Virus record (IMG/VR): IMGVR_UViG_2541047936_000006
Location: 1-15,520 of that record
From: a virus
Taxonomy: Duplodnaviria; Heunggongvirae; Uroviricota; Caudoviricetes
Strand: one strand, 5' to 3'
Length of the DNA stretch: 15,520 nt
Shown: positions 1 to 14,038 of the stretch, in pieces
Numbering within the stretch: the stretch's first letter is position 1
How the letters are laid out: the number at the start of each line of letters is the position of its first letter
The notes under the pieces: model-generated
What the model was told of the DNA's origin: nothing
Databases searched by the model: none
Seen by the model: the letters and a program-made list of their open reading frames with translations, nothing else
Position numbers and translations under genes: made by a program

Positions 1-219
1 TTACATCCACATAATTTGCTGCCCTGACGGCAACGGGTGCGGCCTTACGGCGTGGACTTCTCCCGGCTTCACGATGTATCTCTGTACCGACTCATAAGTG
101 ATGAACGTGGCGCTGCAATTCACGTTCTGGCACTGGTGATAACGCTCTTTTGTCGTGTCAGTGATATAGCGACTTGTACGCGCATGTGCGGCATGCTGGC
201 ATAAAGGACAATGAAACAT
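1..219 (-). CDS. ogr: Ogr-type zinc-finger activator of P2 late genes, 72 aa
   Basis: Translation from the ATG at 219 reads MFHCPLCQHAAHARTSRYITDTTKERYHQCQNVNC..., with the four-Cys spacing C-x2-C-x22-C-x4-C typical of Ogr/Delta. GAGG lies about 10 nt upstream. The track ORF (1..282) extends upstream in frame, but the internal ATG gives the canonical 72-aa length. Stop is at 1-3. Confidence 0.9.
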   Translation of the reverse strand: MFHCPLCQHAAHARTSRYITDTTKERYHQCQNVNCSATFITYESVQRYIVKPGEVHAVRPHPLPSGQQIMWM

Positions 220-300
220 CGCGAGCACCTCTTCCGGTTTTGTTGATGGTGCCATTTTAGTTAATTTACCCTTATAAAACAAACAGATAAAATAAAAATA

Positions 301-603
301 TTACTCATCATCTTCTGTTTCGTACTCCACATCAGAAAGCCTGACCTCAAGCTCTAAGGACGTCGTGAAGCCGCTATTATTCAGAAAATGTGTCACCTTA
401 GTGATTGTCCAGTCCTGCTCGTCTATGACGCGCTTAAAGCCTGATACTTTGGCTAAGGGATGACACAATTTATTCTTTGCCGCTGATGAGGGGAATTTTT
501 TATAGAGCGTGGACAGGCCAATATCAAAAATCAGCGCCACGCGTTGACGTGATTCACCCGCAGCCAGCAATCCCCGGCAGAACGAACGCCGTATCGAGTT
601 CAC
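301..603 (-). pseudogene. Chimeric remnant: Gin/Pin/Hin-type DNA-invertase C-terminal HTH fused in frame to the C-terminal end of a gpD-like tail/baseplate protein
   Basis: Residues RQRVALIFDIGLSTLYKKFPS closely match the C-terminal HTH of serine invertases (Gin ...QVALIYDVALSTLYKKHPA). The C-terminal ...WTITKVTHFLNNSGFTTSLELEVRLSDVEYETEDDE resembles the end of P2 late control protein D and sits directly upstream of ogr as D does in P2. Only a GTG start, no RBS; far shorter than the 387-aa gpD. Confidence 0.5.
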
Positions 604-823
604 CGCCCACGGCCAGAATCAGCACCTGTTCCCCCACGGAAGGTGCCCACCACGTGCGCGAACGTCCGGCACGATGGGTCAGCCACTGAAGCCAGTCGGT
701 GCACATGCCGCCGGTCTGCACACGGCAGCGACCGGCGTTAAGGTCGGTTTCGACGATAATGCCGGTGCGGATCATGTTGCGCAGTGCGCGCGCGAGTTCC
801 TGAATATTTGCGAGTGTGTTCAT
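554..823 (-). pseudogene. N-terminal fragment (about 85 aa) of baseplate spike protein gpV
   Basis: ATG at 823; MNTLANIQELARALRNMIRTGIIVETDLNAGRCRVQTGG... matches the N-terminus of P2 gpV as I recall it. The frame ends after ...VLPGI with AGCG-stop, and the following ORF (301..603) overlaps it in another frame, which fits a deletion junction near 570. Confidence 0.6.
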
Positions 824-889
824 AACGGGAAGGATGCCGCCGGGTCATACCGGCGGCAATGTGACGATGAGGTGTCGGGAATGGCACAA

Positions 890-1318
890 CTAACGGTCGA
901 GGTGAGCCAGGATAATCTCTTCAATCATCTGCACATCCTCACCGGTAAAGCCGAGCAGAGGACGCGCCGGATAATCAATTTTCTTACCGTCTTTCCGGTT
1001 TTCTTCCGACAGACCGAACTGATGCACACTGGCGATTTTCGGCGACTTCCCGCCGTAAAATTCCATTGATGCCTGCTCCGGGCTGGCGCGGATATGCAAA
1101 AAACGACTGGTAATAAGTTTCGCAAACATTTTTCGCTTAACACGACCAGTCTTTTTTCTGGCGCTCTGCTGCTGGCGTGGCGCGTAGGGTGTGCCGTCCG
1201 GGGCTTTCTGAGCCATCACCCGACGCTGCTGACTCTGCCGCAGACGTTTCGCCAGTTCGGCGCTCAGTCGCCGACGCCCTGACGGTGACAGCGATTCAAT
1301 CAGTCCGGTCACCCTCAC
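890..1318 (-). CDS. Phage virion morphogenesis / tail completion protein, gpS family (possibly start-compromised)
   Basis: The C-terminal half carries the family signature ...ASVHQFGL...YPARPLLGFTGEDVQMIEEIILAHL. Only GTG starts (1318 or 1312), no clear SD. It lies 39 nt after, and in frame with, the stop of M, where P2 would have L. Confidence 0.6.
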   Translation of the reverse strand: MRVTGLIESLSPSGRRRLSAELAKRLRQSQQRRVMAQKAPDGTPYAPRQQQSARKKTGRVKRKMFAKLITSRFLHIRASPEQASMEFYGGKSPKIASVHQFGLSEENRKDGKKIDYPARPLLGFTGEDVQMIEEIILAHLDR

Positions 1319-4264: not shown

Positions 4265-6037
4265 ATGACCATCACCACAGACACCACTCTTTTACACGAC
4301 CCGCGTCGTCAGGCGGCGCTGCTGTACTGGCAGGGATTTTCCGTGCCGCAGATTGCCGCCATGTTGCAGATGAAACGCCCGACGGTGCAGAGCTGGAAAC
4401 AGCGCGACGGCTGGGACAGCGTTGCCCCCATCAGCCGTGTCGAAATGAGTCTGGAAGCGCGGCTGACCCAGCTCATCATCAAACCGCAGAAAACCGGCGG
4501 TGACTTCAAGGAAATTGACCTGCTCGGACGCCAGATTGAACGACTGGCGCGGGTCAACCGCTACAGTCAGACCGGCAACGAGGCAGACCTTAATCCGAAC
4601 GTCGCTAACCGCAACAAAGGCGGGCGTCGCAAACCGAAAAAGAATTTTTTCAGTGACGAGGCCATCGAAAAGCTGGAGCAGATTTTCTTTGAGCAGTCTT
4701 TCGAATATCAGTTGCACTGGTATCGCGCCGGACTTGAGCACCGCATCCGCGATATCCTGAAATCCCGCCAGATTGGCGCGACGTTTTATTTTTCCCGCGA
4801 GGCGCTGCTGCGCGCCCTGAAAACCGGCCATAACCAGATTTTTCTGTCGGCCAGTAAAACGCAGGCGTATGTGTTCCGCGAATACATCATTGCCTTTGCC
4901 CGGCTGGTTGACGTTGACCTGACCGGTGACCCGATTGTCCTGGGCAATAACGGTGCAAAACTGATTTTTCTCGGCACCAACTCCAACACCGCACAGAGCC
5001 ATAACGGCGACCTGTACGTCGATGAGATTTTCTGGATCCCGAATTTTCAGGTACTGCGTAAGGTGGCATCAGGTATGGCCTCACAGAGTCACCTGCGCTC
5101 GACCTATTTCTCCACCCCGTCCACGCTGGCGCACGACGCCTACCCGTTCTGGTCCGGTGAACTGTTTAACCGGGGACGCGCCAGCGCCGCTGAACGCGTG
5201 GAAATCGACGTCAATCATAACGCACTTGCCGGAGGTCTTCTCTGTGCGGACGGCCAGTGGCGGCAGATTGTCACCATTGAGGACGCGCTGAAAGGCGGCT
5301 GCACGCTGTTCGACATTGAGCAGCTCAAACGCGAAAACAGCGCCGACGATTTTAAAAACCTGTTCATGTGTGAATTTGTTGACGACAAGGCGTCAGTGTT
5401 CCCGTTCGAGGAGCTGCAACGCTGCATGGTCGACACGCTGGAAGAATGGGAAGACTACACGCCGTTTGCCACCAATCCGTTCGGCTCCCGCCCGGTATGG
5501 ATTGGTTACGACCCGTCACACCGTGGCGACAGCGCCGGATGCGTGGTGCTGGCACCGCCGGTGGTGGCCGGTGGCAAATTCAGAATACTTGAGCGCCATC
5601 AGTGGAAAGGCATGGACTTTGCCACCCAGGCGGAATCCATCCGCAAACTCACCGAAAAATACAACGTCGAATACATCGGTATTGATGCCACCGGCCTCGG
5701 TGTCGGCGTGTTCCAGCTCGTGCGCTCGTTCTATCCCGCCGCGCGCGATATCCGCTACACGCCGGAAATGAAAACCGCAATGGTGCTCAAGGCAAAAGAC
5801 GTTATTCGCCGTGGCTGTCTGGAATATGACGTCAGCGCCACCGACATCACCAGCTCGTTTATGGCTATCCGCAAGACCATGACCAGCAGCGGACGCAGCG
5901 CCACCTATGAGGCCAGCCGCAGCGAGGAAGCCAGCCACGCCGACCTCGCCTGGGCGACCATGCACGCTCTGTTAAATGAGCCACTCACCGCCGGTATCAG
6001 CACCCCGCTGACATCCACCATTCTGGAGTTTTACTGA
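4265..6037 (+). CDS. P: Terminase large (ATPase) subunit gpP, 590 aa
   Basis: ATG at 4265, preceded by GAGG at 4257-4260. MTITTDTTLLHDPRRQAALLYWQGFSVPQIAAMLQ... ends ...TILEFY. The length matches P2 gpP, and the stop TGA overlaps the Q start (TGATG). Confidence 0.9.
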   Translation: MTITTDTTLLHDPRRQAALLYWQGFSVPQIAAMLQMKRPTVQSWKQRDGWDSVAPISRVEMSLEARLTQLIIKPQKTGGDFKEIDLLGRQIERLARVNRYSQTGNEADLNPNVANRNKGGRRKPKKNFFSDEAIEKLEQIFFEQSFEYQLHWYRAGLEHRIRDILKSRQIGATFYFSREALLRALKTGHNQIFLSASKTQAYVFREYIIAFARLVDVDLTGDPIVLGNNGAKLIFLGTNSNTAQSHNGDLYVDEIFWIPNFQVLRKVASGMASQSHLRSTYFSTPSTLAHDAYPFWSGELFNRGRASAAERVEIDVNHNALAGGLLCADGQWRQIVTIEDALKGGCTLFDIEQLKRENSADDFKNLFMCEFVDDKASVFPFEELQRCMVDTLEEWEDYTPFATNPFGSRPVWIGYDPSHRGDSAGCVVLAPPVVAGGKFRILERHQWKGMDFATQAESIRKLTEKYNVEYIGIDATGLGVGVFQLVRSFYPAARDIRYTPEMKTAMVLKAKDVIRRGCLEYDVSATDITSSFMAIRKTMTSSGRSATYEASRSEEASHADLAWATMHALLNEPLTAGISTPLTSTILEFY

Positions 6038-7071
6038 TGAGCAAGAAAAAAGGGAAAACACCGCAACCTGCGGCAAAAACAATGACCGCCAGCGCCCCGA
6101 AAATGGAGGCATTCACCTTTGGTGATCCGGTGCCGGTACTCGACCGCCGTGACATTCTGGATTATGTCGAGTGCATCAGTAACGGCAGATGGTATGAGCC
6201 ACCAGTCAGCTTTACCGGTCTGGCAAAAAGCCTGCGTGCTGCCGTGCATCACAGCTCACCGATTTACGTCAAACGCAATATTCTGGCCTCGACATTTATC
6301 CCGCATCCGTGGCTTTCCCAGCAGGATTTCAGCCGCTTTGTGCTGGATTTTCTGGTGTTCGGTAATGCGTTTCTGGAAAAGCGATACAGCACCACCGGTA
6401 AGGTCATCAGACTGGAAACCTCACCGGCAAAATATACCCGCCGTGGTGTGGAAGAGGATGTTTACTGGTGGGTGCCGTCCTTCAACGAGCCGACAGCCTT
6501 CGCACCCGGCTCCGTGTTTCACCTGCTGGAGCCGGATATTAATCAGGAGCTGTACGGCCTGCCGGAATATCTCAGCGCCCTTAACTCTGCCTGGCTGAAT
6601 GAGTCGGCCACGCTGTTCCGCCGCAAGTATTACGAAAACGGCGCTCATGCCGGATACATCATGTACGTCACCGATGCCGTGCAGGATCGCAACGATATCG
6701 AAATGCTTCGCGAAAACATGGTTAAGTCGAAAGGCCGCAATAACTTTAAAAATCTGTTTCTCTATGCCCCACAGGGGAAAGCCGACGGCATTAAAATTAT
6801 CCCGCTCAGTGAAGTGGCAACGAAGGACGATTTTTTTAATATCAAAAAAGCCAGCGCCGCTGACCTGCTGGACGCGCATCGCATCCCCTTTCAGTTGATG
6901 GGGGGCAAGCCGGAGAACGTCGGGTCGCTGGGTGATATTGAGAAAGTGGCAAAGGTCTTTGTCCGCAATGAGCTTATCCCGTTACAGGACAGGATCCGCG
7001 AGATAAACGGCTGGCTCGGTCAGGAGGTCATCCGATTTAAAAACTACTCACTGGACACTGACAACGGCTGA
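6037..7071 (+). CDS. Q: Portal (capsid vertex) protein gpQ, 344 aa
   Basis: MSKKKGKTPQPAAKTMTAS...; same length as P2 gpQ and translationally coupled to P. Followed by a terminator and cos, as at the left end of the P2 genome. Confidence 0.9.
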   Translation: MSKKKGKTPQPAAKTMTASAPKMEAFTFGDPVPVLDRRDILDYVECISNGRWYEPPVSFTGLAKSLRAAVHHSSPIYVKRNILASTFIPHPWLSQQDFSRFVLDFLVFGNAFLEKRYSTTGKVIRLETSPAKYTRRGVEEDVYWWVPSFNEPTAFAPGSVFHLLEPDINQELYGLPEYLSALNSAWLNESATLFRRKYYENGAHAGYIMYVTDAVQDRNDIEMLRENMVKSKGRNNFKNLFLYAPQGKADGIKIIPLSEVATKDDFFNIKKASAADLLDAHRIPFQLMGGKPENVGSLGDIEKVAKVFVRNELIPLQDRIREINGWLGQEVIRFKNYSLDTDNG

Positions 7072-7076
7072 ACATC

Positions 7077-7098
7077 GCCGCCTGCGGGCGGCTTTTTT
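7077..7098 (+). terminator. Rho-independent terminator of the P-Q operon
   Basis: GCCGCC (7077-7082), loop TGCG, GGCGGC (7087-7092), then TTTTTT (7093-7098), starting 6 nt after the Q stop. Confidence 0.7.
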
Positions 7099-7240
7099 AC
7101 ACCCCGTCATCACCCCCTCACACGCTCACCACCGCACAAAACACCCCGCAGACACACCAACGCCTCAACGGGCAGACTAAGCGCCGTCACGACGCGCTCA
7201 GACGCTGAAAAAATAAAATCCGCACCACCGCCAGCGCGCA

Positions 7241-7259
7241 GTGCTTTCCCCGCCTCGCC
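7241..7259 (-). other. P2/P4/186-type cos cohesive-end sequence (19 nt)
   Basis: The plus strand reads GTGCTTTCCCCGCCTCGCC, the reverse complement of GGCGAGGCGGGGAAAGCAC, which I recall as the P2/P4 cohesive end. It lies about 170 bp beyond the Q stop, matching P2 left-end topology. Confidence 0.75.
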
Positions 7260-7518
7260 CGCCCGCTTCATGGGGAGGTTTTAATGCAAACGCATCAGGA
7301 AGGGCAGACCTAGTCACATGTAGAATACGATAGCAATAAAAAAGTCTAATTAGAATGCAAATTGATGCAACTCTATGCCCTCCAAGAACTCCAAACCTGA
7401 AAGATTTATGTAAAACATAGTGTTCGTTTCACCAAAATACATATAAACTACATTAAAATAGAAATTTGTCTCACCTATAAGCCATTTAGACAACAGATTA
7501 ATGAGGTTTGTATCACAA

Positions 7519-8664
7519 ATGACCACAAACGAGATACTTTCGCAGCTTATCAGTCTTGGACTCAAAGGGGATAAAGTTGCTTTTGTTCGGCAGGCTTCGA
7601 AACTCGCGCGTTCCTATGATTCTATGGGGCTGCCTGAGCTTGCTTCAGCCATTAGAGGTAGTATTCAAGATAAAAACACGTTTAACTTGCAGAAAGTATC
7701 ACGCAGTACATCACCTATTTTTGAACGTCTTGATACATTACCTGTAGATAAAGAAACTAAATTTGATTTAGCAGACGTAACTCAACCGTCTTCTGAAATT
7801 CAACTCCCATTGTTGAAAGATAGCACTCTGAAAAAAATTAAAGAATTTTTGACTTTCACTGAACGAGCTAAAGAATTAAAGGATGCCGGTCTTGGCGTGA
7901 CATCCTCTATGATTTTATATGGGCCACCAGGTTGTGGTAAAACCTTGACATCAAAATATATTGCATCCTGTCTAAATTTACCGCTTCTTACTGCAAGATG
8001 TGACTCCTTAGTCTCATCATATCTGGGGTCTACTTCTAAAAATATCAGGCAGCTATTTGAGTATGCAAGTAAAGCACCATGTGTTTTATTTCTAGATGAA
8101 CTAGATTCTCTAGCAAAGGCTAGAGATGATCAGCATGAGTTAGGTGAACTGAAGAGGGTGGTGGTTTCTTTATTGCAAAATATTGACAATCTACCTGAAG
8201 AAACAATATTGATTGCTGCAAGTAATCATGAAAATCTTCTAGATAGCGCAGTTTGGAGGCGCTTTGAGTATAGAATATCTATTGGATTGCCTGATTTTGA
8301 AGTCAGAAAACAACTATTTGAACAATATTCAAACATAAAAGCTACATATGACGATTTTGTTGATGACCTTGCGGAAATATCATCAGGGCTAAACTGCTCA
8401 TTTATAGAACAATGCTGCTTAAGATCTGAGCGACATGCTCTGGTTTACAATAATAAACAAATCGATACCCGATTTTTAGTCGAGGCTATCTTAGAAGCGA
8501 AGGGAGTTACATTTGATGAAGAAGATAATTTACTTATAAAGATTGTGACCACTCTCAGAGAATACAATCCCAAAAGATTTACAATACGAAAGATAGCAAA
8601 AATACTAGGGCTTTCAAATGCTAAAGTGTCAAGGCTAACTAAGAACTATAGAGAGATATTATGA
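7519..8664 (+). CDS. Classical AAA-family ATPase, 381 aa (candidate IetA-like defence ATPase)
   Basis: Walker A is GPPGCGKT (Lys141, nt 7921-7944) and Walker B is VLFLDELD (nt 8083-8106). The second region of homology, ...AASNHENLLDSAVWRRFEYRISIGLPD, resembles the Vps4/katanin-type RRFE/D motif. Start chosen at the ATG at 7519 (GAGG 12 nt upstream); the track start is 7501. The stop overlaps the next start (ATGA). Confidence 0.85.
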   Translation: MTTNEILSQLISLGLKGDKVAFVRQASKLARSYDSMGLPELASAIRGSIQDKNTFNLQKVSRSTSPIFERLDTLPVDKETKFDLADVTQPSSEIQLPLLKDSTLKKIKEFLTFTERAKELKDAGLGVTSSMILYGPPGCGKTLTSKYIASCLNLPLLTARCDSLVSSYLGSTSKNIRQLFEYASKAPCVLFLDELDSLAKARDDQHELGELKRVVVSLLQNIDNLPEETILIAASNHENLLDSAVWRRFEYRISIGLPDFEVRKQLFEQYSNIKATYDDFVDDLAEISSGLNCSFIEQCCLRSERHALVYNNKQIDTRFLVEAILEAKGVTFDEEDNLLIKIVTTLREYNPKRFTIRKIAKILGLSNAKVSRLTKNYREIL

Positions 8665-10925
8665 GTAACAAAGAAAGACCAATAAAAATAATTGAGGCGA
8701 CACCTCAAGATTTTACTGAAAAAACATATAATTTCGGAAAGAAACAACCTATCCGAACAGTAACAACTAGTCTAAAAAATAGACTCAAACAAGAAGTCGA
8801 TGACGTTAAAAATTTTTTCCAGAGCTCATTTAAAAAATGGCCCAATATACCGGCGGTGGCTAGAGTTACTCTTCATGAAAAAGCTCTTGCTAAGTCACAT
8901 CGCCCATCAAGCCTATTAGGTGATAATACATGTCCCGTAATAGGCAGTGATAATTTTGGAGAATTACTTATAAGTGTTACTGAAAAAGGGTTAGCACAAC
9001 TTCGCAAAAAAATTGAAAATAGCACTAATTCTCATAATGGGACAGTACATATTGCTGTAATTGAAAAGATCGAACCTTTTAGTCTTAACCATGATGTTAT
9101 AGATAAAAATAAATCAGATAGTTTTCTTCTGAAACTCTTTGACCATAAAGATAGAACAACTAACCGCAGTATCGACAAAGAATTAATGGAATTTGCAGAT
9201 GAACTAGGAATACAAAAACCCAAAAAGTATGATATCAGTTCAGATTTGAGTATATATGAAGTAAAAGGGAATGATAACATCGCCCAACTGGCAAGTTTTA
9301 TTGGCATACGAAAATTAGAACCTATGCCAACATTTGGTCTTACTCATACAGTATCGCAATATATTCCTGCTGAAACTCTAGACCTAGATGATTTTCCCTT
9401 ACCTCAAGAGGATAAACATTATCCACTACTCGGAATTATAGATAGCGGAGTCGATCCCAATAACAACATACTTAGGCCATGGATTTGGGATAGTTTAGAT
9501 TTAGTAAAAGGAGAACACGACTATTCTCATGGGAACATGGTTGCAAGTTTAGCAATTAATGGAAGATGGTTGAATAACTATGCTGGTTTTCCTCAATGCC
9601 AAGCTGAAATTGTTGATGTTGCAGCCTTTCCCAAAGATGGTACGCTCAAATTGCCACAATTAATGAAAGCTATCCGAGAGGCTGTGACCACCTATCCAGA
9701 AGTACGTGTATGGAATCTGTCATTAGGTTGTCAATCCCCATGTTCTGAAGACAGCTTCTCTGAATTGGGGCATTTTTTAAATGCACTTCATGATGAGCAT
9801 GATTGTCTTTTCGTCGTAGCATCCGGCAACTACATTTATGATCCTCAACGAACCTGGCCTCCTCAAGAATTAGGTGGGCATGACAGAATATCAGCCCCCG
9901 CAGATTCTGTTCGTTCATTAACTGTTGGCTCAGTTGCCCATTTAGAATCGTCTGACTCTGTGGTCAAAAGATTTGAACCTTCATCTTTTTCTAGAAGAGG
10001 TCCCGGCCCAGCCTTTATACCCAAACCAGAGATAAATCACTTTGGAGGTAATTGTGACAGTAAATTAAACTGTGAACATACCGGAATCATAGCTATTGGC
10101 GAGGACAATGCTCTTTGCGAAAGTATTGGCACAAGTTTATCAGCACCGTTAATCTCAAGTTTAGCGGCATCACTGTGGCATGAACTAGATGTTAATGGTT
10201 CTATTTCACCATCGCCTGAACGTATCAAGGCACTATTAATTCATTCTGCGTTAAAAAACTCACCAGCCAAAACGGAGCATTATGCGTTTAATTATCAAGG
10301 ATTTGGACGCCCAAGCGATCATATAAATGATATTATTGGTTGCAATAAAAATGAGATTACATTTCTATTTGAAATAGATACCCGAGAAGGTATTGAATTC
10401 AGTAGAACGCCATTTGTAATACCACAGTCATTACGTACTGAGGATGGAAAATTCACAGGTGAAATTATTATGACACTCGTTTATTCTCCACCGCTTGATT
10501 ATGACTACCCATCTGAATATTGCCGTTCTAATGTGGATGTGTCATTCGGGACTTACACTTATGATCCAGTTAACGCTAAATGGATACATAGCGGAAAAAT
10601 TCCACAAATAAAAGAAAAGAGTGAATTATTTGAAAAGGTACTGATAGAAAATGGCTTCAAATGGTCTCCAGTCAAAGTTTATAGAAAACAATTTCCGCAA
10701 GGTATAAATGGGGAGCAATGGAGACTTAAACTTGATGTTCAGAGACGAGCAGAGCAAGAGCCTCTATCTTCACCTCAACGTGCTGTATTGGCTATTACGT
10801 TAAGATCTCTTGCCAATTCTACTACAGTCTACAACGAAGCCGAGGTTGAAATAAATAATCTTGGTTGGAAAGAAACTGATATTGTTGTTCGTGAACAACC
10901 AAAAATCAGGATTCGTCAAAAATAA
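8661..10925 (+). CDS. Subtilisin-like serine peptidase (S8 family), 754 aa, with large extra N- and C-terminal regions (candidate IetS-like)
   Basis: The catalytic triad appears in the canonical order D-H-S: Asp261 in GIIDSGVD (nt 9441-9443), His290 in HGNMVAS (9528-9530), Ser492 in GTSLSAP (10134-10136), with an ASGN oxyanion-hole motif. About 250 aa N-terminal and about 220 aa C-terminal have no recognisable motifs. AT-rich codon usage. Confidence 0.9.
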   Translation: MSNKERPIKIIEATPQDFTEKTYNFGKKQPIRTVTTSLKNRLKQEVDDVKNFFQSSFKKWPNIPAVARVTLHEKALAKSHRPSSLLGDNTCPVIGSDNFGELLISVTEKGLAQLRKKIENSTNSHNGTVHIAVIEKIEPFSLNHDVIDKNKSDSFLLKLFDHKDRTTNRSIDKELMEFADELGIQKPKKYDISSDLSIYEVKGNDNIAQLASFIGIRKLEPMPTFGLTHTVSQYIPAETLDLDDFPLPQEDKHYPLLGIIDSGVDPNNNILRPWIWDSLDLVKGEHDYSHGNMVASLAINGRWLNNYAGFPQCQAEIVDVAAFPKDGTLKLPQLMKAIREAVTTYPEVRVWNLSLGCQSPCSEDSFSELGHFLNALHDEHDCLFVVASGNYIYDPQRTWPPQELGGHDRISAPADSVRSLTVGSVAHLESSDSVVKRFEPSSFSRRGPGPAFIPKPEINHFGGNCDSKLNCEHTGIIAIGEDNALCESIGTSLSAPLISSLAASLWHELDVNGSISPSPERIKALLIHSALKNSPAKTEHYAFNYQGFGRPSDHINDIIGCNKNEITFLFEIDTREGIEFSRTPFVIPQSLRTEDGKFTGEIIMTLVYSPPLDYDYPSEYCRSNVDVSFGTYTYDPVNAKWIHSGKIPQIKEKSELFEKVLIENGFKWSPVKVYRKQFPQGINGEQWRLKLDVQRRAEQEPLSSPQRAVLAITLRSLANSTTVYNEAEVEINNLGWKETDIVVREQPKIRIRQK

Positions 10926-10930
10926 GCATT

Positions 10931-10955
10931 ATGGTCACCTTTTATAGGTGACCAT
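10931..10955. terminator. Hairpin between the convergent cargo operons (possible bidirectional terminator)
   Basis: ATGGTCACC (10931-10939), loop TTTTATA, GGTGACCAT (10947-10955); a perfect 9-bp stem between the stop at 10925 and the stop at 10959. There is no strong U-tract on either side. Confidence 0.45.
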
Positions 10956-10958
10956 TTA

Positions 10959-11720
10959 CTACACCTTATTATTTTCAACTATTTTATGAATATCCATATC
11001 AAACCAAGAAACTTGCGAAATTTCTTTTAGTGGAAAGATGATACTAGTATCAGCATCCTCAAGCTCTCTATATTCATTCACCAAGATTACTTTCAATGAA
11101 TCCTTATCTCTATACCCAGAGATAATAGGATAGATTGAAACATACTGGTTAGGTCCTTCTTTCTCGTTAGGCTCACCTAATGCGTTAACAATTCCTACAT
11201 ATGTCTTTTTATTTTGCAACGTAATAAGTATTGAACGTCTATCAACTAACGAATCAAAAAATATTTCATCCATTGGATTATCATTAATAAGCTCTTGCCT
11301 CATCCTTAGCATGACAAGATTCTCATAATCAATATTGGCAGCCTTTACCCCTTGGATATAATTTATAATTTTAGCTCTATATATAACCAAATATCTAGCA
11401 CCGACACTCCATATCCAAGCCAAAAATATCGTTCCACATGAAAGTAAAATCATCCATCCTATGATTCTTTCAGTACCATTGTCACTAAGTTTGAGATCTA
11501 ATTGTTCCCGAACCATCGTGACAGGATGGAAGCTCGGACATATCCATTTTATTAAGTAAGCTATAATCAATGTCCATATAAAACACCACAGACCAAAGGC
11601 GGCTGACTTCATATATAACAACTGCCCATCATAACGGTGTAATCTATAGAAATGATAAGGATGAGTGGTTAATACAATATAACCACTCACAAGTAATGGA
11701 ATAATTAATAAAGCAAACAT
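10959..11720 (-). CDS. Uncharacterised membrane protein, 253 aa: three predicted N-terminal TM helices plus a soluble C-terminal domain of about 145 aa
   Basis: ATG at 11720. Hydrophobic stretches are FALLIIPLLVSGYIVLTT, AAFGLWCFIWTLIIAYLIKWI and IIGWMILLSCGTIFLAWIWSV. Its start lies 2 nt after the stop of the upstream small ORF (TAATAATG). No family recognised. Confidence 0.7.
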   Translation of the reverse strand: MFALLIIPLLVSGYIVLTTHPYHFYRLHRYDGQLLYMKSAAFGLWCFIWTLIIAYLIKWICPSFHPVTMVREQLDLKLSDNGTERIIGWMILLSCGTIFLAWIWSVGARYLVIYRAKIINYIQGVKAANIDYENLVMLRMRQELINDNPMDEIFFDSLVDRRSILITLQNKKTYVGIVNALGEPNEKEGPNQYVSIYPIISGYRDKDSLKVILVNEYRELEDADTSIIFPLKEISQVSWFDMDIHKIVENNKV

Positions 11721-11722
11721 TA

Positions 11723-11959
11723 TTAATTCCCTTTAGCCATTTTTTCTTCTTGCTTTACCTGCTCAGAAACTATTTTTCTTGCTTTAATTTTCATCAATTT
11801 TACTGTATCTGAGCTTGCCAAGTCTTCTTTAGATGTGATAATCGCGCCTCGACCTACCACCTCAACAGTGTTTGTTCCAGATGCTTCAAGCCTCCTCGCC
11901 AGTTCTCTTTCCTTTTCAATAGCAGCTTTACCTATAATACGTTCAAATATATTCATCAT
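11723..11959 (-). CDS. Small charged hypothetical protein, 78 aa, first gene of a two-gene operon
   Basis: ATGATG start at 11959/11956 with a strong SD (GGAGG about 6 nt upstream on the minus strand). The stop is tightly coupled to the membrane-protein start. Sequence MMNIFERIIGKAAIEKERELARRLEASGTNTVEVVGRG...; no family recognised. Confidence 0.6.
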   Translation of the reverse strand: MMNIFERIIGKAAIEKERELARRLEASGTNTVEVVGRGAIITSKEDLASSDTVKLMKIKARKIVSEQVKQEEKMAKGN

Positions 11960-12050
11960 TTAACCTCCACTTGATTGATGCCAAGATAGTAATCACCTCC
12001 TCACAATATCTTACCAACCTAACAATTAACAGAACACTGTGTATAAGTCC

Positions 12051-12078
12051 AGTATAGTTTAATTAATAAATTAGGCAA
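12051..12078 (-). promoter_or_regulatory. Candidate sigma70 promoter for the minus-strand two-gene operon
   Basis: On the minus strand: TTGCCT (-35), a 16-nt spacer, TATACT (-10), about 90 nt upstream of the ATG at 11959 in an AT-rich intergenic region. Found by eye only. Confidence 0.3.
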
Positions 12079-12473
12079 ATCTATCAAAATGGTATTTTGT
12101 TAAAAATTCAGCTAACTCTGAGGTTGGTAAAACAGTCCACCAGATGTATCGCTAAAGCACTTAGAAACCACTATAACCATCCTAAGTGTACCAGTCAGTC
12201 TGTTTGTCTAATCGCATCACTATGCTCGTTATTCTATCCCCCGCCAATCCTGAGCTGGCTGCGTTCTCTATCGTCTGCGTGGTGGCGGTGCAGCGCTGGG
12301 CTGACCGATATAGTTAAGCCATACGTAATTATCCCGGACTATTTCGGCACACCCGACCAGCTCATCGGGCGTCAGATTTTCGTTGACCATAATCTGCTGT
12401 AGACGGTGAACAATGGCCATCAGCTTGATATTTTTAGTTTTATGCTGCGGTATCTCGCCTGGTATTCTGTGCA

Positions 12474-12929
12474 TTATCCAAGCCACCCGTTTTGCTGTGC
12501 ACGCTCCACCTGTTCATCTGAATAGTTCCATATCCCATCCGCACCAACCACTGCCCCGCCAGACATCCCCGTCTCTGGTTCATACACAACAGCAAGGCCG
12601 AGCTGATGCATAATTTCATGATTAATTCTGAATACCAGACCACGCTCACTAAGTTCTTTCCAGTTCACAAACTCATATGCGCCTGTATTAAGCAGCTCAA
12701 TACTTAGCAAGACATAATCTTCCAGCCAGTCTGACAAGTCAGTAACATCTGTTATCCGGGCTTCAACCTTTCGCCCCGTATACACACCCTGCACCCATTC
12801 ATGCAAAATCAACGTGTCCCCGCGCTCATAATTACGGTCATTTTTCCGAAACTCTGCGCGTTTCTTTCCTTCCAGCACAAGGTCAAAATATTTTGCGTGC
12901 AGCTTTACCTCGTGAATTTTTGCCATCAT
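12474..12929 (-). CDS. DUF3850-like (ASCH/PUA-like fold) domain protein, about 151 aa
   Basis: MAKIHEVKLHAKYFDLVLEGKKRAEFRKNDRNYERGDTLILHEW...YTGRKVEARITDV matches the DUF3850 consensus as I recall it. ATG at 12929 with GGAG about 9 nt upstream; it overlaps the stop of the A fragment (ATGATG/TGA). The track ORF starts at a GTG at 12962. Confidence 0.65.
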   Translation of the reverse strand: MMAKIHEVKLHAKYFDLVLEGKKRAEFRKNDRNYERGDTLILHEWVQGVYTGRKVEARITDVTDLSDWLEDYVLLSIELLNTGAYEFVNWKELSERGLVFRINHEIMHQLGLAVVYEPETGMSGGAVVGADGIWNYSDEQVERAQQNGWLG

Positions 12930-14038
12930 TTCCACTCCATTACTGTTGAGAATCCCGGCCACTCATCAGCGACCGGATACGTGAATTTTTTCCCGTCATA
13001 ATTTACGGTCGCGCCACGCGCCAGCGCCTCAAGCTCCCATCGCTGCGGCCTGATACCGTTCTGAGCAAGGTCAACGCGGATACGGGTAATTTGCATTCTT
13101 TCCGACCGGGTCAGTCTGGCCGATGGTGCAATTTCATGTGGTTTTAACGGGCTTCCGTTTCTTTGCTGACGGTTTGGCGTTCTCAGGTCGTGTTTTAATG
13201 CACCCCTGAGCGCCCTCACGACCTCCGGGTCATTCCATTCGATAACACCATCATCAACCAGATTAAGCACTGCTGCGGCGTGTTCAGAAGGCGTGGGAGC
13301 CGGTGACGAAGTATCACCACTGGTGAGCTTTCCACAGTTATTGACAGGACTCCGAGGCGCGGCGATGCCGCTTTTTAAAGTCAAAGGCTCAACGACCGGC
13401 ACTTTCGGAACAATGCGCCAGTCCGTGGTTCTGGTGATATGAATATGACGCGCGCCGAGATGCGGCGCGTAAATGCCGACCACTCTCTCGACTTCTTCCT
13501 CGTACTCGTTAACTTCATCCGACGGACTACGGGCGACCCTGACAGTCTGACAATCGCGCGAGACATTTGCCCCACCCTGCGCGCTGATATACAGCGCAAA
13601 ATCACCACTGTCTGCGGCGGCGCGTGCAGCCTCGACGCGCTCGTCAAACTCATCAGCAATGCTGACGCCGCGAGGCAATTTGCGTAGTTCACGGTAAGCC
13701 CCCATTGTCGGCAGACCAACCGTTTTAAATTGCGGGATGCGCCACGTTGACGCCCATGCGGTAACAGCCGCCGCAGTATCTTTCAGCGGTCTGCCGGTAT
13801 CGTTATCGAGCTGACCATCCAGTGCATAGCCGTCGATATTTTTTGAAATGTATTTCGCGATATATCCCGCAGCACCGCCCCGGTTACCGATGTAAAGAGC
13901 AAAACCTTCTTTCGACAGCAAATCAGATGGGCGCTCTGAAATCTGAATGCTTTTACGTTTGGCTTCATTTTCGAAACTTGCCTCATCGCTAGTTGGACAA
14001 GAAATTTCTACATTTGTCGTCACTTTGCTATCCTCCAT
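12926..14038 (-). CDS. Replication initiation endonuclease gpA family, C-terminal portion only (about 370 aa against 761 aa in P2)
   Basis: Contains the rolling-circle initiator active-site Tyr motif GYIAKYISKNIDG about 60 residues from the start, where P2 gpA has its catalytic Tyr near residue 450. No cox or B gene lies upstream. Possible starts are the ATG at 14038 or the GTG at 14023 (GGAGGA 8 nt upstream). Confidence 0.65.
   Translation of the reverse strand: MEDSKVTTNVEISCPTSDEASFENEAKRKSIQISERPSDLLSKEGFALYIGNRGGAAGYIAKYISKNIDGYALDGQLDNDTGRPLKDTAAAVTAWASTWRIPQFKTVGLPTMGAYRELRKLPRGVSIADEFDERVEAARAAADSGDFALYISAQGGANVSRDCQTVRVARSPSDEVNEYEEEVERVVGIYAPHLGARHIHITRTTDWRIVPKVPVVEPLTLKSGIAAPRSPVNNCGKLTSGDTSSPAPTPSEHAAAVLNLVDDGVIEWNDPEVVRALRGALKHDLRTPNRQQRNGSPLKPHEIAPSARLTRSERMQITRIRVDLAQNGIRPQRWELEALARGATVNYDGKKFTYPVADEWPGFSTVMEWK

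What the first reader, a model, noticed from the sequence alone, without database searches (positions are those of the whole stretch)
7519..10925. AAA ATPase + S8 subtilase operon in the P2 old/tin hotspot (IetAS-like candidate anti-phage system)
Two translationally coupled genes (ATGA overlap at 8661-8664) encode a classical AAA ATPase with intact Walker A and B motifs and a 754-aa S8 peptidase with an intact Asp261/His290/Ser492 triad. They sit between cos and the replication gene, where P2 carries old and tin, in markedly AT-rich DNA. I recall a two-gene ATPase plus S8 peptidase defence system named ietAS from a 2020 systematic screen, but cannot verify homology here. As far as I know its trigger, substrate and mechanism are not established, so a protease-based defence effector remains mechanistically interesting.
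Basis: partly seen in the sequence, partly recalled or inferred. Interest (0 to 1): 0.85.

Follow-up and report, generated by a model that had tools for sequence, protein, structure and literature searches.

The report
IetAS defence operon in P2 hotspot
Two overlapping genes beside the cos site of a decayed P2-like prophage of E. coli encode a clear member of the already described IetAS ATPase-plus-protease anti-phage (toxin-antitoxin) family. The finding is real and correctly read, but it is ordinary. One point may be new: in this branch of the family the pair always travels with a two-gene membrane-protein module.

Summary
ietA (7519-8664, 381 aa) and ietS (8661-10925, 754 aa) overlap by ATGA. 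They lie 260 bp from an exact P2 cos 19-mer, inside a 36.5% GC cassette (7300-12255) flanked by 53% GC phage DNA.

Both proteins match the PADLOC IetA and IetS models over their full length (E 9e-132 and 1e-273). Walker A/B, sensor-1 and the Arg fingers are invariant in IetA homologues. D261, H290, N352 and S492 are invariant in IetS homologues.

The exact proteins are already listed in the published census of the P2 hotspot (Rousset 2022, Table S5). IetAS is a known defence and toxin-antitoxin system whose substrates are still unknown.

Caveats: the pair scores below NCBI's strict IteA/IteS equivalog cut-offs and is only 34-36% identical to an NCBI-named E. coli IteAS. No tested homologue could be shown to be this variant.

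New here:
- IetS is predicted to be a cytoplasmic pro-subtilase-like enzyme with a family-specific N-terminal domain.
- In every locus with IetS at 60% identity or more, a convergent 78-aa gene and a 253-aa gene follow ietS. The 253-aa protein has 3 TM helices and an Sm/WYL-like barrel.
- The host prophage is heavily deleted.

The parts
7241..7259 (-). P2-type cos cohesive-end 19-mer. It marks the left edge of the old/tin hotspot.
   Evidence: Exact match to GGCGAGGCGGGGAAAGCAC; 0 matches in 200 shuffles. The cos sequence itself comes from my own knowledge of P2/186.
7300..12255 (.). Variable, AT-rich cargo cassette of the hotspot. It holds four genes.
   Evidence: 36.5% GC against 53.1% elsewhere. 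P2-like phage genomes match only 6800-7300 and 12255-13100 of the window.
7300..7518 (+). Upstream region of ietA. It presumably holds the promoter and operator, but this was not demonstrated.
   Evidence: The consensus scan found no sigma-70-like site on the + strand here. An imperfect inverted repeat, 7441-7456 / 7498-7513, brackets the region just 5' of the start codon. A GAGG sequence lies at 7503-7506.
7519..8664 (+). ietA: a classical-clade AAA+ ATPase of 381 aa, the presumed antitoxin/regulator. Walker A is at 7921-7944 (K141 at 7939-7941) and Walker B D193/E194 at 8095-8100. An HTH-like C-terminus is encoded at about 8551-8661.
   Evidence: PADLOC IetA 9e-132. NCBIfam IteA 387 bits, full length. 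Pfam AAA 1e-31. The best PDB sequence matches are VAT/p97/Cdc48 D2 domains. Invariant residues in 39 homologues are G135, P137, G138, G140, K141, D193, E194, N236, R247 and R248; T142 is conserved in 90% or more. HTH hits on the C-terminus are weak.
8661..10925 (+). ietS: a cytoplasmic S8 subtilase of 754 aa, the presumed toxin/effector. D261 is at 9441-9443, H290 at 9528-9530, N352 at 9714-9716 and S492 at 10134-10136. An invariant N-terminal motif, ALAKSHRP, is encoded within 8877-8906.
   Evidence: PADLOC IetS 1e-273. NCBIfam IteS 782 bits, full length. Pfam Peptidase_S8 6.7e-24. The triad and N352 are invariant in 46 homologues. The AF2 model has pLDDT 89. The fold is closest to ProN-Tk-SP and to unprocessed pro-subtilisin. 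The N-terminal 245 aa are found only at the N-terminus of IetS-like proteins.
10931..10955 (.). Hairpin between the convergent genes ietS and the 253-aa gene. It is probably a bidirectional terminator.
   Evidence: 10-bp stem, ATGGTCACCT...AGGTGACCAT.
10959..11720 (-). 253-aa membrane protein with 3 N-terminal TM helices and a C-terminal Sm/Hfq/WYL-like beta-barrel. It is linked to IetAS in this clade.
11723..11959 (-). 78-aa soluble protein, the first gene of the two-gene module.
   Evidence: PHROG 37504, function unknown. Conserved together with the 253-aa gene.

Best explanation
The pair is a genuine member of the IetAS family, carried as cargo in the cos-proximal (old/tin) hotspot of a P2-like prophage.

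Shown here: family membership, an intact ATPase machinery, an intact protease machinery, strong purifying selection, and the hotspot location.

Inferred from work on homologues: IetS is a cytoplasmic, pro-subtilase-like serine protease that is toxic when free. IetA is a classical-clade AAA+ ATPase with a probable C-terminal HTH. It is translationally coupled to IetS, holds IetS in check in an ATP-dependent way, and probably autoregulates the operon.

During infection, a phage protein, or the loss of IetA activity or supply, frees IetS. IetS then cleaves essential host or phage proteins, and the infected cell stops producing phage (abortive infection).

My confidence is about 0.95 that this is an IetAS family member and about 0.6 that it works through this abortive-infection route.
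For: - Profile matches: full-length PADLOC IetA and IetS, full-length NCBIfam IteA and IteS alignments, and PHROG 3757/3964.
- Catalytic residues: D261, H290, N352 and S492 are invariant in 46 IetS homologues. K141, D193, E194, N236, R247 and R248 are invariant in 39 IetA homologues.
- Selection: dN/dS is 0.04-0.07 against the Citrobacter copy.
- Gene pairing: IetA and IetS homologues are adjacent in every locus read, from Gammaproteobacteria to an Ri plasmid.
- IetA resembles threading unfoldases (p97/VAT/PAN/FtsH).
- IetS has no Pfam domain beyond S8. Its predicted fold is closest to pro-forms of subtilases that keep an inhibitory prodomain.
- Literature: protease toxin and ATPase antitoxin; an ietA mutant cannot be cloned; protease activity is needed for defence. 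Loss of the Mycoplasma antitoxin alone is lethal. The B. cereus IetAS becomes toxic with SPbeta YosG, and cultures collapse at high MOI.
- Hotspot: this locus is listed in the P2-hotspot census.
Against: - Both proteins fall below NCBI's equivalog cut-offs (387 against 510 bits; 782 against 900 bits).
- They are only 34-36% identical to an NCBI-named E. coli IteAS and 22% (IetS) / 37% (IetA) identical to an Ri-plasmid pair.
- No experimentally tested homologue could be shown to be this variant. The ECOR52 cloning primers do not match the window. The Gao 2020 paper could not be read.
- The ECOR52 IetAS gave limited protection on its own.
- No promoter-like site was found upstream of ietA.
- The host prophage is defective, so expression is not assured.
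[quoted passage not shown] The abortive-infection and antitoxin steps are therefore extrapolated from homologues.
Confidence: 0.8

Rival explanations
1. The functional unit is the whole four-gene cassette: ietA, ietS, and the convergent 78-aa and 253-aa genes. In this reading the membrane protein with its cytoplasmic Sm/WYL-like barrel is a sensor, a substrate or effector of IetS, or a synergistic second layer. IetAS alone would then be incomplete or weaker in this clade.
For: All 17 loci with IetS at 60% identity or more carry both extra genes in the same convergent position, 26-48 bp from the ietS stop. Their flanks differ completely: P2 hotspot, Rac-like prophage, RepB/ParB islands, AlpA-integrase islands, and a HicAB/IS region. 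Divergence is congruent across the four genes, and dS is equal for ietA, ietS and the 253-aa gene (1.1-1.3; the 78-aa gene was not measured). A shared hairpin lies between the two operons. WYL/Sm-like domains act as ligand sensors in other defence systems, as the BrxR, CapW and DriD hits show.
Against: Both halves also exist alone. IetAS at 51% identity or less lacks the module (L006-8, L018, L020). The module occurs without IetAS in Arsenophonus (59%), and at lambdoid prophage ends in E. coli (48%) and Klebsiella (36%). The genes are transcribed convergently, not as one operon. Two-gene IetAS systems are sufficient for defence or toxin-antitoxin behaviour in other clades.
Confidence: 0.25
2. 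The main role of the pair is addiction, that is, post-segregational stabilisation of the mobile element that carries it. Phage defence would be secondary or absent.
For: IetAS was discovered as the stability and incompatibility determinant of pTiC58. Homologues lie on conjugative plasmids and on RepB/ParB-carrying islands. Here the pair stays intact with 99.8-100% identity in 12 genomes, while the surrounding prophage has lost its replication, excision, lysis and tail genes.
Against: An integrated prophage that cannot excise needs no addiction module. The hotspot it occupies is enriched in anti-phage cargo. Homologues protect against phage and respond to a phage protein. The two roles are not mutually exclusive.
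Confidence: 0.15
3. The pair is a housekeeping protein-quality-control system or an inactive relic.
For: The ATPase resembles proteasomal and FtsH-type ATPases. The host prophage is decaying.
Against: It is present in only 12 of 5426 complete E. coli genomes and always on mobile DNA. Its GC content is foreign to the host. All catalytic residues are intact, and dN/dS is 0.04-0.07. The best family matches are defence models, not quality-control families.
Confidence: 0.03

Closest known systems
IetAS (also written IteAS; 'Gao_Iet'): a two-gene anti-phage system of an AAA ATPase plus an S8 peptidase (Gao et al. 2020; PADLOC models PDLC02196 and PDLC02197; NCBIfam NF042959 and NF042956)
   Same: The gene order, the overlap, and the protein sizes (381 and 754 aa against roughly 370-390 and 750-765 aa) are the same. 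Alignments are collinear over the full length. All catalytic motifs are present, and the family-specific N-terminal and C-terminal domains of IetS are present.
   Different: The pair is below NCBI's equivalog cut-offs and is 34-36% identical to the NCBI-named E. coli CT282 pair. It is untested experimentally as far as I could find. In this clade it is always accompanied by two extra convergent genes.
The IetAS toxin-antitoxin module of Agrobacterium pTiC58 (Yamamoto et al. 2009), represented here by the related pair on Rhizobium rhizogenes pRi1724
   Same: An ATPase gene (374 aa) lies directly upstream of an S8 gene (752 aa). The best PADLOC models are the same. The alignment with the window's IetS is collinear over residues 32-734.
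   Different: IetS is only 22% identical and IetA 37% identical over the aligned 321 aa. The context is plasmid maintenance rather than a prophage hotspot. I did not confirm that the pRi1724 pair is the orthologue of the pTiC58 genes.
Mycoplasma mycoides TA132/133, an AAA-ATPase antitoxin with a subtilisin-like protease toxin
   Same: The two-gene architecture and the sizes (353 and 757 aa) are the same. The toxin and antitoxin roles were shown experimentally.
   Different: It is chromosomal, in a wall-less Mollicute. No phage-defence role has been tested. I did not measure its sequence relationship to the window pair.
ietHAS and the E. coli E24377A-type locus (SNF2 helicase + AAA + S8)
   Same: The core ATPase-plus-S8 pair is recognised as ietAS by PADLOC.
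   Different: These loci carry an essential SNF2 helicase upstream, have a shorter ATPase (326 aa) and a longer protease (795 aa), and co-localise with a type III RM system. The window has no helicase. Its companions are a 78-aa protein and a membrane Sm-like protein.
P2 old and tin, the classical cargo of the same hotspot
   Same: The position between cos/Q and A is the same. ietAS lies in the orientation of old, and the convergent pair lies in the position and orientation of tin.
   Different: There is no sequence or domain relationship. Old is an ATPase-TOPRIM nuclease, not a protease system.

Membership tests
IetAS | An AAA ATPase gene lies immediately upstream of, and is co-oriented with, an S8 peptidase gene | tested here: met
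   7519-8664 and 8661-10925, with a 4-bp ATGA overlap. The same pairing is seen in all homologous loci read.
IetAS | IetA matches the curated defence-system profile over its whole length | tested here: met
   PADLOC PDLC02196: 9.1e-132, 438 bits, residues 9-382 on profile positions 3-370 of 374.
IetAS | IetS matches the curated defence-system profile over its whole length | tested here: met
   PADLOC PDLC02197: 1.1e-273, 908 bits, residues 1-747 on 1-747 of 749. The NCBI-named CT282 IteS scores 973 bits on the same model.
IetAS (NCBIfam equivalogs IteA NF042959 and IteS NF042956) | The score reaches NCBI's curated equivalog cut-off | tested here: not met
   387.3 bits against a cut-off of 510, and 782.4 bits against 900. 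Both alignments are full length. This is why RefSeq names the proteins only 'AAA family ATPase' and 'S8 family peptidase'. The result lowers the claim that this is the same equivalog, not the claim of family membership.
IetAS | A catalytically competent ATPase (Walker A Lys, Walker B Asp-Glu, sensor-1 Asn, Arg fingers) | tested here: met
   K141, D193/E194, N236 and R247/R248 are present and invariant in 39 homologues.
IetAS | A catalytically competent subtilase (Asp/His/Ser triad plus oxyanion Asn) | tested here: met
   D261, H290, S492 and N352 are present and invariant in 46 homologues.
IetAS | The IetS-specific N-terminal region (about 245 aa) and C-terminal beta-sandwich flank the S8 domain | tested here: met
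IetAS | Confers protease-dependent protection against phage | not testable with these tools
   This needs plaque assays. It is reported for homologues only.
IetAS as a toxin-antitoxin pair | IetS is toxic alone and is neutralised by IetA | not testable with these tools
   Shown for the pTiC58 and Mycoplasma homologues. Not tested for this variant.
Cargo of the P2 old/tin hotspot | Lies between cos/gene Q and gene A of a P2-like prophage, in DNA not shared with other P2-like phages | tested here: met
   cos at 7241-7259. Q at 6037-7071 and A sequence from 12926. Phage genomes match only the flanks. The same accessions are in Rousset 2022 Table S5A.
Classical-clade AAA+ (p97/Cdc48, PAN, FtsH type) | Best sequence similarity is to classical-clade AAA domains, including the second region of homology with its Arg fingers | tested here: met
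   VAT, p97 and Cdc48 D2 domains match at E 1e-44 to 1e-50. PAN, FtsH and CdvC are the next-best NCBIfam models. The pore-loop position reads S-S-Y-L-G, but the Tyr is not invariant, so a threading mechanism is inferred, not shown.

The most novel reading that the evidence does not exclude
In this enterobacterial branch, IetAS may have become a four-gene system. On this reading the convergent 78-aa protein and the 3-TM protein with a cytoplasmic Sm/WYL-like barrel work together with the protease. Possible roles are a nucleic-acid or ligand sensor, a membrane effector that IetS activates by cleavage, or an obligatory synergistic partner. This would give the first handle on what IetS acts on. 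My evidence shows strict co-inheritance across at least 9 unrelated genomic contexts and equal synonymous divergence. It also shows that each half can exist alone in more distant relatives.
Probability: 0.25. Interest if true: 0.6.

Novelty: already known. Interest (0 to 1): 0.3.

Why it matters
IetAS is common. PADLOC calls it in about 2000 E. coli genomes in one survey table and in 35 porcine ETEC strains. Yet recent papers still state that its mechanism is unknown.

This locus adds no new kind of system. It is, however, a native E. coli version in a natural prophage context. It has a high-confidence structural model that predicts a zymogen-like protease. It also has a conserved companion module that could point to the protease's partner or target.

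The case also illustrates that defence cargo can outlive the phage that brought it. The prophage has lost its replication, excision, lysis and tail genes, while the cassette remains under strong purifying selection.

Tried and rejected
1. Solved structures: no IetS or IetA structure is in the PDB by sequence. Only generic subtilases (E about 5e-4) and p97-type ATPases were found.
2. Primary papers: Gao 2020 and Yamamoto 2009 are not held. Their content is cited only through other papers.
3. Literature searches for 'IetS/IetA', 'IteAS' and 'Gao_Iet' returned unrelated acronyms and no mechanism paper.
4. Link to a tested E. coli system: the ECOR52 cloning primers match neither the window nor any fetched locus. 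The E24377A 'ietAS' is a different, SNF2-associated subtype.
5. Pfam on the isolated IetS N-terminal (1-250) and C-terminal (551-754) parts found no family. The IetA C-terminus gave only sub-threshold HTH hits.
6. Promoter scan: nothing convincing upstream of ietA, and the total number of sites is no higher than in shuffled sequence.
7. The scan of GTDB representative genomes with the 253-aa protein returned only 2 loci, because single-protein patterns find close relatives only. Contexts were therefore gathered through exact-protein look-ups instead.
8. The idea that the 78-aa and 253-aa genes are an obligate part of IetAS was rejected as a general rule. Both modules occur alone.
9. A search for IetAS remnants near the Arsenophonus module, even at E up to 10, found none.
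10. No complete E. coli genome reproduces the window's deletion pattern.
Full report
**Observation.** The window carries two long ORFs on the + strand, 7501/7519-8664 and 8661-10925. The 7519 start gives a 381-aa product. RefSeq uses this start, a 100%-identical protein seen on 690 contigs has it, and the aligned N-termini of homologues agree with it. The stop of the first gene and the start of the second overlap as ATGA at 8661-8664. Pfam gives AAA (1e-31) and Peptidase_S8 (6.7e-24). The DNA from 7300 to 12255 is 36.5% GC against 53.1% for the rest of the window. ORFs of 381 and 754 codons in DNA this AT-rich are not chance events.

**Genomic setting.** The window is a P2-like prophage of E. 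coli. Terminase P and portal Q run up to 7071. The exact 19-nt P2 cohesive-end sequence lies at 7241-7259 (the cos sequence is from my own knowledge). Gene A sequence begins at 12926. The pair therefore sits in the cos-proximal hotspot where P2 itself has old and tin, as described by Rousset et al. 2022 and in a 2024 preprint. Sequenced P2-like phages match only the flanks of this region, 6800-7300 and 12255-13100. The cargo cassette is thus about 4.95 kb. Identical or near-identical copies (99.8-100%) occur in 12 of 5426 complete E. coli genomes, always chromosomal.

**What it is.** Against PADLOC, the first protein matches IetA at 9.1e-132 and the second matches IetS at 1.1e-273. Both alignments are essentially end to end. 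NCBIfam's 'anti-phage ATPase IteA' and 'S8 family anti-phage peptidase IteS' are also the best models, again over the full length. The scores (387 and 782 bits) are below the strict equivalog cut-offs (510 and 900), which explains the generic RefSeq names.

A pair that NCBI does name iteA/iteS, in E. coli CT282, is 36% and 34% identical and collinear. A pair on the Ri plasmid pRi1724 is of the kind in which IetAS was first found on Agrobacterium plasmids. Its IetS is 22% identical over residues 32-734 and its IetA 37% identical over 321 aa, and it has the same best PADLOC models.

IetS homologues of constant length (about 740-765 aa) are found in many phyla. D261, H290, N352 and S492 are invariant in a 46-sequence alignment. 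In 39 IetA homologues, G135, P137, G138, G140, K141, D193, E194, N236 (sensor 1) and R247/R248 (Arg fingers) are invariant, and T142 is conserved in 90% or more. Against the Citrobacter youngae copy, dN/dS is 0.07 for ietA and 0.04 for ietS. This is a functional member of the IetAS family, in a sub-branch distinct from NCBI's exemplar.

**Already catalogued.** Table S5A of Rousset et al. 2022, the census of the P2 hotspot, lists this very locus by accession: WP_000210436 (AAA/HTH_50) and WP_000066157 (Peptidase_S8), with WP_000457800, WP_021570510, WP_000554775 and WP_032144906. AAA + Peptidase_S8 cassettes recur in that table and also in the P4 hotspot table. PADLOC-based surveys routinely report ietAS in E. 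coli, including porcine ETEC. Two of the 12 carriers found here are porcine ETEC strains.

**How it most likely works.** The shown and inferred steps are kept apart.

*Shown here:*
- IetA is a classical-clade AAA+ ATPase. Its best sequence matches in the PDB are the D2 domains of VAT, p97 and Cdc48, and the next-best NCBIfam models are PAN, FtsH and CdvC.
- IetA's last 40 or so residues give only sub-threshold HTH hits. Rousset's HHpred label for the protein was AAA/HTH_50.
- The AlphaFold model of IetS is confident (pLDDT 89, pTM 0.91).

From these matches and the secondary structure I read IetS as four parts: an N-terminal alpha/beta region (about 1-150), a propeptide-like alpha/beta unit (about 150-240), the S8 domain (255-550), and a C-terminal beta-sandwich (about 560-745). 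The N-terminus is hydrophilic, so I read the protein as cytoplasmic; no signal-peptide predictor was run. The first 245 residues occur only at the N-terminus of IetS-like proteins among 1.84 billion representatives. They contain an invariant motif, A75-x-A77-K78-(S79-H80)-R81-P82.

*Inferred from homologues:*
- The protease is the toxin and the ATPase the antitoxin. An ietA mutant could not be cloned, and protease activity is required for defence.
- In Mycoplasma, deleting the ATPase alone is lethal, and the protease is toxic in E. coli.
- A B. cereus IetAS becomes toxic when SPbeta YosG is expressed. Cultures collapse at high MOI, which indicates abortive infection.

My model is therefore as follows. 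IetA restrains a zymogen-like IetS using ATP. Infection relieves the restraint, and IetS proteolysis stops the cell. The substrates, the way IetA restrains IetS, and the trigger for this variant are all unknown. Papers from 2024-2026 still call the mechanism unknown.

Directly downstream of ietS, and convergent with it across a 10-bp-stem hairpin (10931-10955), lie a 253-aa gene (10959-11720) and a 78-aa gene (11723-11959). Neither has a Pfam, PADLOC or NCBIfam family. They fall in PHROGs 3630 and 37504, both of unknown function.

In every locus I read with IetS at 60% identity or more, both genes are present in the same position, although the flanks are unrelated. These loci are:
- the E. coli P2 hotspot;
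- Citrobacter youngae;
- Pectobacterium, next to HicAB and an IS element;
- Enterobacter cloacae;
- an E. coli Rac-like lambdoid prophage;
- Providencia and metagenomic RepB/ParB islands;
- Salmonella/Citrobacter AlpA-integrase islands.

Identities fall in step across the four proteins, from about 85-91% through 65-78% to 54-60%. Synonymous divergence to the Citrobacter copy is the same for ietA, ietS and the 253-aa gene (1.14, 1.32 and 1.25).

Against an obligatory link, both halves also occur alone. IetAS at 51% identity or less lacks the module (L006-8, L018, L020). The module stands alone in an Arsenophonus endosymbiont (59%). It also stands alone beside the integrase at the ends of lambdoid prophages in E. 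coli (48% identity; listed in 1851 index blocks) and Klebsiella (36%).

My reading is that two autonomous modules have been locked together in this lineage. I put about 25% on a real functional coupling.

**Other variants.** The 'ietAS' that PADLOC calls in E. coli E24377A is a different subtype. It has an upstream SNF2 helicase, a 326-aa ATPase and a 795-aa protease, and it is fused to a type III RM locus. This corresponds to the ietHAS type, in which the helicase is essential. The ECOR52 system tested by Wu et al. is not this variant either, because its cloning primers do not match. I could not establish which homologue Gao et al. tested.

**State of the prophage.** Relative to the intact prophage in strain DCE7 (L001), the window lacks three blocks:
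- L001 4790-10270, the tail fibre and baseplate genes;
- L001 11014-14009, the tail-completion gene, the lysis genes, tail protein X and the head-completion gene;
- L001 26588-29882, covering the 5' part of gene A, the small early genes, gene B and most of cox.

The last deletion fuses Cox residues 1-51 in frame to A residues 443-761, giving the ORF at 12926-14038. No complete E. coli genome in the collection shows the same pattern. The element cannot replicate, excise, lyse or build tails, yet the cargo cassette is intact.

**Verdict.** The system is a member of a known family in a known hotspot, and this exact locus is already in a published table, so I rate it 'already known' with modest interest (0.3). 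The residual value lies in three things: the unresolved mechanism of IetAS, the zymogen-like architecture predicted here, and the conserved companion module, which gives a concrete and cheap experiment.

Noticed in passing
window 10959-11959 (- strand): A two-gene module: a 78-aa protein and a 253-aa protein with 3 TM helices and a C-terminal Sm/Hfq/WYL-like barrel. It has no Pfam, PADLOC or NCBIfam family. It sits in the 'tin' position of the hotspot. It also occurs alone next to integrases at lambdoid prophage ends in E. coli and Klebsiella, so it is a candidate exclusion or abortive-infection module in its own right.
   Followed up: yes
window 12926-14038 (- strand): A 3.3-kb deletion relative to the intact prophage (L001 26588-29882) fuses Cox residues 1-51 in frame to A residues 443-761. 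Gene B, the small early genes, and most of cox and A are gone. The junction shows 2-3 nt of microhomology.
   Followed up: yes
window 1-1311: The left end is a patchwork of prophage fragments. Window 449-570 matches part of the DNA invertase gene, and 569-1311 matches parts of baseplate V and virion-morphogenesis genes. The tail fibre, baseplate, lysis and head-completion genes are deleted. No complete E. coli genome shows the same deletion pattern.
   Followed up: partly
window 8877-8906 (IetS residues 73-82): The motif ALAKSHRP is invariant or nearly invariant across 46 IetS homologues, inside an otherwise variable, family-specific N-terminal region. It could be an autoprocessing site, an autoinhibitory segment or an IetA-recognition segment.
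   Followed up: no
window 8551-8661 (IetA residues 345-381): The C-terminal segment RFTIRKIAKILGLSNAKVSRLTKNY gives a dozen sub-threshold HTH hits, and Rousset's HHpred label was HTH_50. This suggests the ATPase also binds DNA, as autoregulating antitoxins do.
   Followed up: partly
window 7441-7456 / 7498-7513: An imperfect inverted repeat (16 nt, 81% complementary, 41 nt between the arms) lies just upstream of, and overlaps, the alternative ATG at 7501. It is a possible operator. No sigma-70-like promoter was found on the + strand between cos and ietA.
   Followed up: no
window 12268-12926 (- strand): This is the conserved right flank of the hotspot: a 68-aa protein (PHROG 11386) and a DUF3850/ASCH + DUF7415 protein (150 aa). 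Both are shared with other P2-like phages, so they are not part of the cargo.
   Followed up: partly
L028 (E. coli E24377A, NC_009801.1 3330029-3340792): The locus that PADLOC labels 'ietAS' here is SNF2 helicase + 326-aa AAA + 795-aa S8, directly followed by a type III RM methyltransferase and helicase. 'ietAS' counts in E. coli surveys therefore mix at least two architectures.
   Followed up: partly
L019 (E. coli NRZ103545, Rac-like prophage): The same four-gene cassette, in the variant whose IetS is about 60% identical, sits between the replication genes (ydaU/ydaV) and a hok/gef gene of a lambdoid prophage. The cassette therefore moves between unrelated phage families.
   Followed up: partly
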